Origin: Eledone cirrhosa | Lineage: Eukaryota | Direction: 5' to 3' | Assembly (NCBI GenBank): GCA_964016885.1 | Contig: OZ024741.1 | Span: 392,584,001 to 392,648,000 of the forward strand | DNA: 64,000 nt | Shown: positions 605-63,250 of the stretch, piece by piece | How positions within the stretch are numbered: position 1 is the stretch's first letter | Layout: each line of letters opens with the position of its first letter | The notes under the pieces: generated by a model | The model's database searches: none | What the model saw: the letters and a program-made list of their open reading frames with translations, nothing else | Told to the model about the DNA's origin: nothing | Program-made: the position numbers and the translations under genes

Positions 605-1212
605 CTATATATATTGTATTTTAAAGAGCCCAGGAAAACTCTTTCCTTTGAGCTCATTGAATTACAGGATTTTACGCGAGTCCATTGCTCCATTATTTTA
701 CTTGATATTTGTTCCTTGCGTTCTCTCTGCTGTCGAGCACCATAAATTGAATGGTATAGGCTGCCATTTCTAGCAGCTTGTTCTGTTCATACCACCGGTC
801 ACTGCCTTGTGTACGTATTTCCCTTCTGTTTACACGTGCGACAGGTGGTTACTATAGTTCTCTCTTTAGTAGTGTGGACAATATCGGTCTTTGCACATGC
901 TGATGACCCACTGGGCCGAATTGGAACCCATTATATGGCGAAACAATCTCTTAGGGAGTTTGTACAAGTGTGATTTAGTTATGAGGTTGGTTTCTCATTT
1001 TCATTTATCCTTTTAATTATTATGTTTCTCCTAAACCTCTCTTAGCTTATATTCTCTTCACGCTGGTGGTTTAACATCCTGTAAATGAAAACACACTCTC
1101 CAGTGTTTTTCCTCCCTATATATATTGTATTTTAAAGTGCCCAGGAAAACTCTTTCCTTTGAGGTCATTTAATTACAGGATTATACGCGAGTCCTTTACT
1201 CCGTTATTTTAC
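605..1212 (+). mobile_element. Non-coding HHR-bearing element, about 1.2 tandem units of 511 bp (retrozyme or PLE pLTR-like)
   Basis: About 97-bp direct repeat at 605-701 and 1116-1212; one HHR inside; no ORF; ends in (TA)n. Confidence 0.65.
892..972 (+). ncRNA. Type I hammerhead ribozyme
   Basis: tgcacatg-CTGATGA-ccca...tggc-GAAA-caatctcttagggagtttg-TA-caagtgtg. Stems I-III pair with a few mismatches; GUA triplet; C-C mismatch at the base of stem II. Confidence 0.7.
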
Positions 1213-1711
1213 TATATATATATATACACCCTTGCAAGCAGGGAAAAGCGGACGTAAAATGATGATGATGATGATGATGATACACACATACAATGGGCTT
1301 TCTTGCAGTTTCCATCTACCAAATTCATTCACAAGGAATTGGTTGGCTGAAGACTATAGTAAAATATACATGCCCAAGATGCTGTGCTGTGCCATTGAAC
1401 TTGAAACCATGTGGTTGTGAAACAAAATGCTTAACCACACAGCCATGCTTATGTGTGTATATCTAATTTTACTCCTGTCCAAAACCTCTGTTGTTTATCT
1501 TGTGTCCTGTTATGTCTTATAACTTAGTGGTTCAACAAACAGAGATCGATAAAATAAATAATACAGTCAATGTAATTGACTAAACCATTGAAGGTGTTGT
1601 CCAAGCATGGCTATAACTCAATAACTGAAACCAGTAAAAGAAAAACGGTATGTATACACTTATCTTTATTGATTGCAATAAACATCTAAACATATAATTT
1701 TGGAGTTTTAC

Positions 1712-1845
1712 CTAGTCACATGATCAACAAGTTTTGTCTGCAGCAAAAGATCTCTTCCAGGAAGCAAATTGTCACAGATTAGATTTTGGTTTGTACGGAC
1801 AGCAATACCATTACCAACACACAAAGATCGAAGTACATCCAGAAC
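1712..1845 (-). CDS. RyR: RyR exon: [44 protein letters not shown]
   Basis: 134 bp; cttacag acceptor, gtaaaa donor; phase 0 to 2. Confidence 0.96.
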
Positions 1846-1925
1846 CTGTAAGTAAATGCAAGAAAACAACATTAAAAATTATATTGATGTTTGAATTTCT
1901 ACCTTTGCATTTCTTTATAGTTAAT

Positions 1926-2140
1926 GATTGGCAGTATCGGTAGAGGGTCGGACGCCAGGCGGTGGATTGGCAGTATCGGTAGAGGGTCGGACGCCATGCT
2001 TTCCAGCATAGTTACGTCCCTTTACGATCTGAGTTCAAATCCCGCCGAGGTTGACTTTGCCTTTCATCCTTACGGGGTCGATAAAATAAAGTACCAGTAA
2101 TGCACTGGATAACTGCTGGCCTTGTGCCTAAAGTAGAAAC
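1926..2140 (+). mobile_element. tRNA-derived SINE family A, with duplicated 5' head
   Basis: A box TGGCAGTATCGG and B box GAGTTCAAATCC; central gactttgcctttcatccttacggggtcgataaaataaagtacc; near-identical copies elsewhere in the window. Confidence 0.85.
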
Positions 2141-2606
2141 AGTTATCTGAGATAATCAATATTTGAAAAGATCGGATGGTCACAACTTGAATACCTTTAA
2201 CTATGAGTCTAGGACTAATTCACAACTGCAACCACAACATAGATTTCTTTTCTTTTTTACTCGGTGTGTAAGAGGAATTGTAAGGATTAGCACCACAAAG
2301 AGCACCCAACTGTAAAATATTGCTTCCAAAAGACCCCCATAATCTTCAAGAAGGCTGTTGGGGGAGGTTGAATTGCTAACCCCTACTTCAGCAGGGGAAA
2401 TAGTTTGTGTTGTTGATGGATATTTCACAGATCTCTGTCCTGTAAAACGTTTTTATTTGGATGTGCTTATATAATTAAAATACCTAATGATTTAAAGAAA
2501 CAAATACGAAAATTGTATATGTGACTTTTGAAGGCCATGGCGTTAGATTACAATACAAAATAACATTCGTATTTAAAATAGTACAAAAAAGAAACTAAGA
2601 AAATAC

Positions 2607-2725
2607 CTTTGGGTCTCTTCCATGCTTATCAATGAGTGAGATGATAGTGACAATGTGTTTTTCTTTGATCATGTTTAGTGCCTCAGGACTGTCAATTAAC
2701 ACACAATGAAGGACATCAAGAACCC
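2607..2725 (-). CDS. RyR: RyR exon: (G)[39 protein letters not shown]
   Basis: 119 bp; tttag acceptor, gtattt donor; phase 1 to 0. Confidence 0.96.
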
Positions 2726-2990
2726 CTAAAATATAGTTTAATACAGTTTAGAAATTTAAGAGAAACTTCTTTGATATAAATTTCTTGTAATTTTACACAA
2801 AAAGGAATTTAAAAACAAAATGATGTGTTTCTTTTCCTCAGAGAAATCTTATCACCAGAAAGAAGGTGATGAGTAAATGATAAAACACTGAAAACAAGGA
2901 TAACACTTGGAAAAAAAGAAAAGAAAGAAAAACATGAATAGTTACATTCACATTAACTGTACAGTGTTAATTGTAGATTATATATATATA

Positions 2991-60198: not shown

Positions 60199-60636
60199 AT
60201 ATAAGATCAAAAGATGGTTAAAGGAGTTCAATATATTTTATTATGCGCATTTCAAAAACAAACATCATCAAACAATAATATTTGTGTTTTCATCAGATAA
60301 AACAGGAGAACATGATATGAAGGCTAAAAAAACACTTGTTGATAGTGCAGTTTTAAATCAACATATGATTGATTTAAATGATATGTTGATTTAAAACTGC
60401 ACTATCAACAAGTGTTTTTTTAGCCTTCATATCATGTTCTCCTGTTTTATCTGATGAAAACACAAATATTATTGTTTGATGATGTTTGTTTTTGAAATGC
60501 GCATAATAAAATATATTGAACTCCTTTAACCATCTTTTGATCTTATATTATGCATACTCCAGTCCCACAAACTGTAGAGTGCTTCTTATCCGATATCTGC
60601 ATTGCTTTATTGTACTACAATAAAACTCACCTCCTA
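60199..60636. repeat. Fold-back with 168-bp arms and 14-bp spacer; HHR at 60236-60302 (minus) and 60445-60511 (plus)
   Basis: ttttat-CTGATGA-aaacacaaatatta..tgatgtttgttttt-GAAA-tgcgca-TA-ataaaa. Confidence 0.9.
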
Positions 60637-61936
60637 CATATATATACATATATGTATATATATATATATATACATATATATATATATATATATACATATA
60701 TGTATATATATATATATATATACATATATGTATATATATATATATATACATATATATATATATACATATATGTATATATATATATATATATATACATATA
60801 TATATATATACATATATGTATATACATATATGTATATATATATATATATATATATATATATATATATACATAAATATATGTATATATATATATATATATA
60901 TATATATATATATACATATATATATATATATATATAGAGGCACATGGCTTAGTGGTTAGAGCATTGACCTTGCAATCGAAAGGTTGTGAGTTCAATTCTT
61001 AGACCGGGTGATGTGTTGTTTCCTTGAGCAAGACACTTTATTTCACATTGCTCCAGTTTACTCAGCTGTAGAAATGAGATGATAGGGACTGGGATCCATA
61101 TCATTCCACTGCAAAGTGGTCGTGGAGGTGCCACGGCAAAAAAGCACCCAGCACTCACTGAGGTTGGTGTTAGGAAGGGCATCCAGAATCAGTTCCCGTC
61201 CCACCCTTGCAAGCAGTGAAAAAGTGGACGTAAAATGAAATGATGATGATGATATATATATATATATAAATATATATATATATATATAAATATACATATA
61301 TGTTCATTTATATATATAAATATATGTATATATAAATATATATTTGATATATATTTATATATTTGATATATATTTATCCTTATCGAGCCCTCTTTGGATT
61401 TAGTCTTCAAATTTATTATTATTACTATATATATATATATATATATATATTAAGGATACTATTTATGGTTATGTATATAATAAAACCTTTTATAGTTATA
61501 TATATTTTAAACCCTAAATAGTGAAAGACTGTAATTAATTACTATCTTATTACCAGTAAGATAAATAGCTCAATGTAACAACATCAATATATTTATATAT
61601 AAATATATATATAAATTATATATGTATATATATAAATTATATATATATATATCAATTATATATGTATATATATATATATAAATTATATATATATAATTAT
61701 ATATATATATATATATAAATTATATATATATATATAAATTATGTATATATGTAGAGAACAAAACGTTGAATAATGCTGCTAATTTTAGTGGCAATATCAA
61801 CATGTTTATAATATACAGCTATTATCTGCGACCTGATTTTGCATGTGTGTCATTTTAATGGCTTGACCGCATGCGTTGGGCAGAAAGCAAATTATTTACT
61901 TACTATGGGGCTTGCAACCTTATGGTGTGGAAATAG

Positions 61937-62017
61937 GCTGTCTGAAGATTCATTTCTTTCCATTGGAAATTCTCTGGATTTCCAATCTTTCGGAATGATG
62001 AAACCGTCGGTAACAGC
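61937..62017 (+). ncRNA. Type I HHR with long stem II, in an approximately 345-bp insert within (TA)n
   Basis: gctgt-CTGAAGA-ttcatttc..attggaaatt/gatttccaat..ggaatgat-GAAA-ccgtcgg-TA-acagc. Confidence 0.85.
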
Positions 62018-62349
62018 AATGGAACAGGTGATTATTTGAATCGTTTTTTAATTTATTTAGAAAATTGTTTAATAACCGCTTGCTTCGCTACTTTTTATAT
62101 ATATATATATATATATATATATAAATTATATATATATAAATTATATATATATATATATATATATATATATATATATATAAATTATATATATATAAATTAT
62201 ATATATATATATTATATATATATATATATATATATATTATATATATATATATATATATTATATATATATATATATATATATATTATATATATATATATAT
62301 ATATATATATATATATATATATATATATATATATATATATATATATATA

Positions 62350-62590
62350 TATAAAAGACGTAAAATAAGAACATTTTTAAAAATTAAAAAAATTAACTTA
62401 CTAAAATTGGAGTGAGAATTTTAGTAAGTAAGTTAATTTTTTAAATTTTCTAAAATTTTCTTATTTTATGTCTTTTATATTATTGTTCTGCATCCTCCTG
62501 CATCGAACCACCTAGGTACTATGACATAACCTGTGTATTTGCTGGCATTAGCGTACATCTGTATGCATATGTTAGTAGATATACTAAATT
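62350..62590. repeat. Small fold-back (62350-62408 with 62417-62480) plus unique tail in (TA)n
   Basis: Inverted arms read directly; no HHR core seen. Confidence 0.7.
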
Positions 62591-62754
62591 CTATATATAT
62601 ATATATATATATATATATATATATATATATATATATATATATATATATATATATATATATATATATATATATATATAATATATATATATAAATATGTATA
62701 TATAAATAAATGTAAGTATGTATACGTACATAGATATATGTATAGAGAGGTACA

Positions 62755-63250
62755 GTAGTATGTATATATATACATACTACTGTACGTCTGTATAGATATA
62801 TGTATGTACATATACATACTTATATTTAAGTAACAGCTGTACTAAGAGCGAGAAATGAAATTTCGTTTAATTTTTTTCCATTTATCATTTTCGGTGCACG
62901 TGGCCGATTAACTCACTCGATATGCAAATTAGGCTGCTCAGCCGTTAATATACATACGGAAAGTATATACTTTCAGACGTTCAATCATCTGGCAGGAAGG
63001 TATTCGGTGCTGACGATAGTTAATAAGCTTGAAACTAGTACATCGTTCCTTTGTCAGTGTTGAACAAAAGGGCAACGACGGTTGCTAGACACTACGGCTT
63101 AATTCGGGATTTTTGTTTACAAACAAACCGAGCATTATAATAAATGCTCGGTAAATCCATACGTACATATATATATGTGTGCATGTATGTATATAGATAC
63201 ATACTACTGTACGTCTGTATACATATATGATTGTACATATACATACTTAT
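62755..63250 (+). mobile_element. Diverged partial-tandem copy of the 466-bp family; HHR at 63005-63045
   Basis: cggtg-CTGACGA-t-agtt-aata-agct-t-GAAA-ctag-TA-catcg; catactactgtacgtctgtat recurs at 62773 and 63200. Confidence 0.85.

What the first reader, a model, noticed from the sequence alone, without database searches (positions are those of the whole stretch)
892..63045. Window-wide HHR set: families differ in their self-complementary stem III
Seen: helix III is ACUAGU (466 family), AGANYU (PLE A/B), AUGCGCAU (60.4 kb), AUAUAUAU (55.6 kb), ACAAUUGU (53.9 kb), ACCGUCGGU (62.0 kb), and a GAGCUC-containing loop (59.3/31.8 kb). Known: minimal PLE HHRs have palindromic helix III and are proposed to cleave as dimers. 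Inference: the palindromes could act as family-specific pairing barcodes that keep co-resident elements from cross-activating. The 466 family and the 62-kb HHR also share a U-U pair at the base of stem II.
Basis: partly seen in the sequence, partly recalled or inferred. Interest (0 to 1): 0.72.

Follow-up and report, generated by a model that had tools for sequence, protein, structure and literature searches.

The report
Penelope-type hammerheads; palindromes are not barcodes
This stretch of an animal genome is crowded with hammerhead motifs (predicted self-cutting RNAs) likely left by Penelope-type jumping genes; most have a short self-complementary arm that likely lets two copies pair up, an already published design, but different families share the same palindrome, so the palindromes are not family barcodes.

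Summary
The motifs are real. The window holds 17 type I hammerheads with intact cores, one with an altered core and three fold-backs carrying only the 3' half, and the stem III strings are as listed. In a 1.26-Mb sample of the genome, the central four bases of stem III are self-complementary in 25 of 33 families (chance about 1/16), the published dimer signature.

The barcode reading fails. ACUAGU is shared by two retrozyme families (15,291 and 9,923 copies). ACAAUUGU is used by five families. Identical palindromes are commoner than random (8 pairs against 1.4). The PLE-A stem III is mostly AGAACU, which is not palindromic.

A strand-swapped dimer also pairs stem I between molecules, so families are predicted to be insulated by stem I and stem III together, probably as a by-product of drift. 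The U·U pair occurs in 10 of 58 families and is published for axolotl. No cleavage or RNA was shown. The scan reached the same verdict earlier on other windows of this genome.

The parts
892..972 (+). Type I hammerhead with a long, non-palindromic stem III (likely monomer type)
30615..30651 (-). PLE-B pseudo-LTR hammerhead, stem III AGAACU (not palindromic), only 2 bp of stem I next to the core; lies downstream of a PLE RT fragment (31252-31692, 60% identical to the 56.6-kb ORF)
31809..31902 (.). Fold-back of the 3' half of the GAGCUC-loop family; no catalytic 5' half
42410..42447 (-). PLE-A hammerhead, stem III AGAGCU; the opposite arm (about 42530-42568, +) has a decayed core
42846..42900 (+).
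50497..52353 (+). Four identical 466-nt repeats (retrozyme-type array), each with a hammerhead (50608, 51074, 51540, 52006): 7-bp stem I, U·U-closed 4-bp stem II, stem III ACUAGU; family pattern has 15,291 matches
52528..57751 (.). PLE-A insertion: RT with CX4CX2C linker and a frameshifted GIY-YIG end (56633-57751, -), plus an inverted 5'-truncated copy (52528-53705, +)
53455..53492 (+). PLE-A hammerhead, stem III AGAACU (A·A centre, not palindromic)
53844..53974 (.). Fold-back with only the 3' half (stem III ACAAUUGU) of a family whose intact members have a CCGAUGA core and a 94-nt stem II region; 192 pattern matches
54757..54791 (-). PLE-B hammerhead, stem III AGAUUU (self-complementary only with G·U), weak stem I
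55344..55623 (.). Divergent inverted pair of hammerheads (55344-55409 -, 55558-55623 +), 8-bp stem I, stem III AUAUAUAU
55821..55896 (+).
56108..56145 (-). PLE-A hammerhead with core C3 changed to U, stem III AGAACU
59211..59330 (.). Perfect 120-nt fold-back of the 3' half of the GAGCUC-loop family (38,867 pattern matches); no catalytic 5' half here
60234..60513 (.). Divergent inverted pair of hammerheads (60234-60304 -, 60443-60513 +); same stem I as the 55.6-kb family, stem III AUGCGCAU
61937..62017 (+). Hammerhead with long stem II, U·U base and stem III ACCGUCGGU; elsewhere the family forms 457-nt tandem arrays
63005..63045 (+). Diverged solo copy of the 466-family hammerhead, stem III ACUAGU

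Best explanation
The window carries many type I hammerhead motifs, likely the ends of Penelope-like retroelements and their non-coding tandem derivatives (retrozymes), and most have a short self-complementary stem III that is predicted to let two copies form a strand-swapped double hammerhead, most likely between neighbouring copies on one transcript. Each family inherits one palindrome from its founder and drifts to others through G·U intermediates. In the swapped dimer stem I also pairs between molecules (inferred from topology), so cross-family pairing is predicted to be blocked by stem I and stem III together, as a by-product of divergence. The palindrome alone is not a selected barcode.
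For: Shown: intact cores and helices far above reversed controls. The AGAACU/AGGACU family lies about 480-680 nt downstream of PLE RT/GIY-YIG ORF ends in 17 loci. The 466-, about 468- and 457-nt units form tandem arrays. The central four bases, which cannot pair in a monomer hairpin, are Watson-Crick palindromic in 25 of 33 families with a 6-, 8- or 10-nt stem III, using 11 different tetramers. Identical palindromes across families: 8 pairs among 17 palindromic families with n>=2, null 1.4, p=0.0003. The sister 466 families differ in stem I and share ACUAGU. Wobble intermediates occur: AUAUGUAU (19 of 42 in the 55.6-kb cluster), and ACGAUUGU beside ACAAUUGU and ACAGCUGU in one family. Predicted: the active homodimer is 6-20 kcal/mol below two active monomers in 26 of 26 families where a monomer could be scored; the ACUAGU and AUAUAUAU sharers still pay +12.5 and +11.6 kcal/mol as heterodimers. 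Published: palindromic helix III and dimer cleavage (PMC4209133; PMC7229834; PMC6765202 citing Lünse et al.).
Against: No cleavage or expression was measured. Nearest-neighbour energies ignore tertiary contacts and RNA concentration. 8-nt stems (2 bp plus tetraloop) resemble invertebrate hammerheads reported to cleave well as monomers (PMC7229834, PMC7761336). In the anole PLE, cleavage needs protein and is dispensable for insertion in vitro (PMC11167929). No family pair was compatible in both stem I and stem III (0 of 351), which selection for insulation would also give, although independence predicts only 0.36. The 60.4/55.6-kb pair is separated by stem III alone. Only one family was tied to a PLE ORF; the link of the others to PLEs is by analogy. 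The catalogue covers about 0.04% of the genome and is enriched around my own pattern hits. My score rewards stem III pairs, which favours palindromic singletons. Shared ancestry inflates palindrome sharing, and the null ignores it.
Confidence: 0.75

Rival explanations
1. Selected barcodes: palindromes have diversified under selection so that co-resident families do not activate or cleave each other.
For: Stem III is family-typical (96 of 100, 96 of 100 and 92 of 100 listed matches, counted by eye). The 60.4-kb and 55.6-kb families share stem I and differ by four compensatory transitions in stem III (+12.2 kcal/mol). 0 of 351 family pairs are compatible in both stems.
Against: Sharing exceeds chance. 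ACUAGU, AUAUAUAU and ACAAUUGU are each used by 2-5 families. Four or more stem-II lineages share stem I and AUAURUAU at -1.5 to 0 kcal/mol penalty. Within-family constancy is no higher than at most neighbouring positions of these young families. PLE-A is mostly non-palindromic. 0 of 351 is expected by chance (0.36).
Confidence: 0.1
2. The ribozymes act mainly as monomers, possibly helped by the PLE protein, and the palindromic loops are an inherited or structural habit with little role in pairing.
For: Invertebrate retrozyme monomers cleave fast (coral kobs about 0.8/min, PMC7229834). The anole PLE hammerhead is protein-assisted (PMC11167929). The abundant PLE-A family spread with a non-palindromic centre. 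Long-stem-III families exist (892 motif, GAGCUC family). The window's inverted pairs are divergent, so no single transcript carries two sense copies.
Against: 11 different palindromic tetramers in 25 of 33 families are hard to keep without intermolecular pairing. 6-nt stems can form only 1 bp as monomers, the type that needs dimers in axolotl (PMC7229834).
Confidence: 0.13
3. Chance motifs or artefacts of the AT-rich, fold-back-rich sequence.
For: Rfam finds nothing at gathering thresholds. Three listed loci lack the catalytic half. AUAUAUAU resembles the surrounding (TA)n microsatellite.
Against: 393 against 4 in reversed sequence. Thousands of copies with near-zero reversed controls. Helices covary across families.
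Confidence: 0.02

Closest known systems
Hammerheads in pseudo-LTRs of metazoan Penelope-like elements with a small palindromic helix III (Cervera and De la Pena 2014, PMC4209133; parts 1-2 of 4 read, covering abstract, results and discussion)
   Same: Type I topology, many sequence families per genome, palindromic positions 15.2-16.2 and loop 3, extra base between A9 and 10.1, U3-A8 core variant, opposite-strand pairs 100-700 bp apart, proposed dimer cleavage.
   Different: Here stem III is mostly 6-10 nt rather than absent. Some stem II regions are very long (50-95 nt). The most PLE-linked family has a non-palindromic A·A centre. Activity is untested.
Metazoan non-LTR retrozymes (Cervera and de la Pena 2020, PMC7229834, passages and parts 2 and 4 of 6 read; Li, Clavereau and Pollet, bioRxiv 10.64898/2026.07.22.740005, parts 1-3 of 5 read)
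   Same: Tandem non-coding repeats with one type I hammerhead per unit and low GC. A 1-bp helix III with a palindromic tetraloop matches axolotl HHR_Amex1; a U·U at the base of helix II matches HHR_Amex2.
   Different: Units of 457-469 nt lie above the 170-400 nt range of the 2020 abstract but inside the 51-972 bp range of the 2026 preprint. Circular RNA was not shown here.
PLE hammerheads that cleave as dimers (Lünse, Weinberg and Breaker, RNA Biol; paper not held; seen only as cited in PMC6765202, PMC6466107 and PMC7761336)
   Same: Palindromic short stem III and a double-hammerhead model.
   Different: I could not check whether that paper tested heterodimers or discussed family specificity.

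Membership tests
Type I hammerhead ribozyme | Core CUGANGA...GAAA...UH with helices I, II and III, helix I open-ended | tested here: met
   17 window motifs with intact cores. Not met for the 31.8, 53.9 and 59.3 kb half copies; altered at 56108.
Type I hammerhead ribozyme | Match to an Rfam hammerhead model at gathering score | tested here: not met
   0 matches in the window; the permissive E-value mode was not run.
Type I hammerhead ribozyme | Self-cleavage after H17 | not testable with these tools
   Needs an in vitro assay.
PLE-associated dimer-type hammerhead | Located in the pseudo-LTR of an RT plus GIY-YIG element | tested here: inconclusive
   Met for the AGAACU/AGGACU family (17 loci; RT weak in Pfam, E 0.0074; YIG motif). 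Not shown for the other families; tblastn used one window ORF only.
PLE-associated dimer-type hammerhead | Short self-complementary helix III | tested here: met
   25 of 33 families. Not met for PLE-A/B AGAACU, or for the 892 and GAGCUC long-stem types.
PLE-associated dimer-type hammerhead | Cleavage depends on dimer formation | not testable with these tools
   Only secondary-structure energies were computed.
Penelope-like element (EN+) | Inverted 5'-truncated copy next to the element; insertion in microsatellites | tested here: met
   52528-53705 against 55914-57082. 52 of 53 opposite-strand same-family neighbours are divergent. Described in PMC8557442 (passages).
Penelope-like element (EN+) | Clade assignment by RT phylogeny | not tested
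   The CX4CX2C linker fits the CX2-5CxxC motif of Neptune/Nematis in PMC8557442; a lead only.
Non-LTR retrozyme | Tandem non-coding units, each with a type I hammerhead | tested here: met
   466-nt x4 in the window; tandem arrays elsewhere.
Non-LTR retrozyme | Expressed as linear and circular monomer RNA | not testable with these tools
   No raw RNA reads were available to lay.
Family-specific palindrome barcode (proposed) | Each family has its own, non-cross-pairing palindrome | tested here: not met

The most novel reading that the evidence does not exclude
Stem I and stem III together form a two-part self-recognition code, kept by selection, so that the dozens of co-resident ribozyme families do not cleave each other's RNA. 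The 60.4-kb family's switch from AUAURUAU to AUGCGCAU, with stem I unchanged, would be an escape from cross-pairing with its relatives.
Probability: 0.1. Interest if true: 0.6.

Novelty: new member of a known kind. Interest (0 to 1): 0.22.

Why it matters
As it stands this is a rich new sample of a published design. It adds covariation-type support for dimer cleavage (11 different palindromic loop centres in one genome) and natural test pairs: same palindrome with different stem I (the two 466-nt families), and same stem I with different palindrome (60.4 against 55.6 kb). A four-way mixing assay on these pairs would show what sets partner choice in double hammerheads. A selected recognition code between co-resident retroelements would be new, but the sequence data argue against the palindrome being that code.

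Tried and rejected
Rfam gathering scan: no hit. The repeat finder was swamped by (TA)n; self-BLAST was used instead. The loose U3-A8 pattern had a high control (3,867 against 6,980) and was used only for leads. Script 34 failed (no coordinates in locus headers), so copies were de-duplicated by identical 60-nt flanks, which also merges identical tandem units. At score >=12 the 53.9-kb family drops out; both cut-offs are reported. The pair tests used 27 of 58 families (n>=2 and stem III <=11 nt), and the tetraloop test 33 of 58. The global-identity figure for the two 466-nt units is unreliable (the shuffled control is nearly as high); homology rests on BLAST (72-78% over 59-65 nt, E 5e-8 to 1e-4) and the collinear alignment. 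The per-site table is conditioned on my scan, so it is no test of selection. I considered that RNA dimers of independent partners template the two arms of inverted insertions; the arms are identical in 33 of 52 pairs against 11% between loci, pointing to one source, so a random partner was rejected. U·U as a sign of kinship between the 466 and 62-kb families: no BLAST similarity, rejected. Three ACAAUUGU pairs gave near-zero or negative heterodimer penalties, but two cannot close stem I at either site and one closes it at one site only. Expression: no RNA holder listed, which is no evidence either way. Literature: searches showed no paper on family-specific palindromes or heterodimers in their listings (two returned nothing); Lünse et al. 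could not be read and may bear on this. No supplements were opened; the family alignments in the supplements of PMC4209133 and PMC8557442 may already show palindrome sharing.
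Full report
SETTING. The window is G000:C2:392584001-392648000 of a 3.0-Gb genome, AT-rich and full of (TA)n microsatellites and retroelement fragments. Earlier scan notes call the genome octopus-like; I did not test this.

OBSERVATION. Two were missed: 42846-42900, with AUAUAUAU but different stems I and II, and 55821-55896. The 53.9, 59.3 and 31.8 kb loci are fold-backs lacking the CUGANGA half. Intact relatives show a CCGAUGA core with a 94-nt stem II region for the first, and a U3-A8 core with a 5-6 bp stem III closed by a GAGCUC loop for the other two; only 5 of 44 distinct contexts of that family reach back to the 5' half (counted by eye). 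Rfam gave nothing at gathering score, but reversed controls show the motifs are real: 393 against 4.

GENOME COUNTS (stem III left free in the pattern unless noted; controls in brackets). 466 family 15,291 (0), 96 of 100 listed ACUAGU. Stem-I group of the 55.6 and 60.4 kb motifs 40,513 (0). PLE-A 7,654 (0; first G of stem III fixed), 87 of 100 AGAACU and 1 of 100 palindromic. Non-466 motifs with ACUAGU fixed 9,923 (13). GAGCUC 3' half, fixed, 38,867 (0). 53.9-kb family 192 (0), 96 of 100 ACAAUUGU. 42.9-kb family 11,506 (0), 92 of 100 AUAUAUAU. 62-kb stem-I group 1,202 (1). The per-100 tallies are my counts by eye of the first listed matches, not random samples.

WHAT THEY ARE. The window ORF 56633-57751 (-) is a PLE-type RT (weak RVT_1 hit) followed by a CX4CX2C linker and a frameshifted GIY-YIG end, with an inverted truncated copy at 52.5-53.7 kb. 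The AGAACU/AGGACU hammerhead follows such ORF ends in 17 loci. The 466-nt family, its approximately 468-nt sister and the 457-nt 62-kb family form tandem arrays, the layout of non-LTR retrozymes (PMC7229834), which a 2026 preprint derives from PLE pseudo-LTRs (10.64898/2026.07.22.740005). Of 53 opposite-strand same-family neighbours, 52 are divergent, and 33 of these have identical motifs against 11% between loci. This fits the known inverted 5'-truncated copy of PLE insertions (PMC8557442, passages). The PLE link of the remaining families is inferred.

DIMER SIGNATURE. I catalogued 393 distinct motif contexts in 350 sources (1.8 Mb, about 1.26 M distinct 32-mers, enriched around pattern hits) and clustered them with stem III masked into 58 families. 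Among the 33 families with a 6-, 8- or 10-nt stem III, the central four bases are Watson-Crick palindromic in 25 (chance 1/16; binomial p about 1e-23), with 11 different tetramers. These bases cannot pair in a monomer hairpin, so their palindromy points to intermolecular pairing. The score gives up to 4 points for stem III pairs, which biases singletons; the free-gap pattern searches do not have this bias and agree. Constrained folding puts the active homodimer 6-20 kcal/mol below two active monomers in 26 of 26 scorable families. [quoted passage not shown]

BARCODE TEST. (a) Uniqueness fails. ACUAGU is shared by the window's 466 family and a homologous sister family with different stem I, stem II and H17. 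AUAUAUAU is the modal string of 3 families and ACAAUUGU of 5. Among 17 palindromic families with n>=2 there are 8 identical pairs against 1.4 for random palindromes of the same lengths (p=0.0003); the counts are 13 against 1.8-2.6 and 18 against 2.2-3.3 at other cut-offs. Shared ancestry contributes, but that itself means diverging families did not diversify the palindrome. (b) Constancy is partial. The modal string covers 265 of 325 contexts. The 55.6-kb cluster is split 21 AUAUAUAU to 19 AUAUGUAU; one family holds ACAAUUGU, ACAGCUGU and wobble intermediates; another has four different strings in four contexts. (c) Universality fails: PLE-A is mostly AGAACU, and AGAACU x AGAGCU costs 0.0 kcal/mol. 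(d) Several stem-II lineages share stem I and AUAURUAU with -1.5 to 0 kcal/mol penalty. For the barcode: the 60.4-kb family shares stem I with the 55.6-kb group and pays +6 to +12 kcal/mol through stem III alone. Also, no pair among 351 is compatible in both stems (14 in stem III, 9 in stem I), but independence predicts only 0.36, and the clustering merges lineages that share both.

MECHANISM. Shown: the sequences, their family structure and the palindrome sharing. Inferred from topology: when stem III pairs between two molecules, each core takes its cleavage-site strand from the partner, so stem I is intermolecular too (homodimer structure). Predicted: sharers of ACUAGU and AUAUAUAU still pay +12.5 and +11.6 kcal/mol, and the median penalty over 351 pairs is 19 kcal/mol. 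So insulation between families, if it matters, comes from both helices and needs no selection. Tandem arrays supply a partner in cis, whereas the divergent pairs put only one sense copy on a transcript. Untested: cleavage, expression, dimer dependence. Monomer or protein-assisted action remains possible (PMC7229834; PMC11167929, passages).

U·U. Present in both families as stated, but also in 10 of 58 families. It is replaced by G-C or G·U in some 62-kb relatives and by G-C in the 466 sister family. The 466 and 62-kb units show no BLAST similarity. The mismatch is described for axolotl HHR_Amex2 (PMC7229834).

VERDICT. Real motifs of a known kind; the dimer reading is supported indirectly; the palindrome-barcode reading is not supported. 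I recorded this reading before looking at earlier scan notes. Three of them reach the same verdict on other windows, which is not independent evidence.

Noticed in passing
window 59211-59330 and 31809-31902; L250, L262: The GAGCUC family has about 39,000 3' halves, mostly truncated or folded back inside the ribozyme. Intact copies have a U3-A8 core and a stable stem III capped by a 6-nt palindromic loop, which recalls retroviral kissing-loop dimerisation signals (recalled, not tested).
   Followed up: partly
window 55294-55673, 59828-60936, 42284-42688; genome-wide: Same-family opposite-strand hammerhead pairs are almost always divergent (52 of 53) and mostly identical, pointing to one source for both arms; earlier scan notes discuss this at length.
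   Followed up: partly
window 53733-54291: Nested inversions: the 53.9-kb fold-back and a SINE-like repeat (53978-54169, also at 1958, 32453 and 47120) sit between inverted copies of the same 127-nt flank.
   Followed up: no
L055, L056, L209, L028 (stem I ending UGCU): One family shows stem III turnover between ACAAUUGU and ACAGCUGU, with ACGAUUGU and ACGUUUGU wobble forms and a CCGANGA core variant.
   Followed up: partly
L221-L226, L234, L248, L165: A 316-nt tandem family with a U3-A8 core carries several different 11-13 nt stem III strings.
   Followed up: no
window 15514-16395: About 20 copies of a 44-nt minisatellite at 98-99% identity.
   Followed up: no
window 8550-9846 (+), 45284-46533 (-), 12626-12826: Decayed non-LTR (LINE-type) RT fragments, RVT_1 E 4e-20 and 3e-16, one with a PHD-like finger.
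   Followed up: no
window 23451-23860: A fragment of the 466-family unit without its hammerhead, in inverted orientation within a fold-back.
   Followed up: no
window 24576-27667: Nested inverted repeats (24576-24814/25942-26181, 25351-25993, 27003-27255/27412-27667) with no hammerhead found by my scan.
   Followed up: no
window 38000-42000: A GC-richer stretch (42-44%) with what looks like decayed coding sequence; not examined.
   Followed up: no
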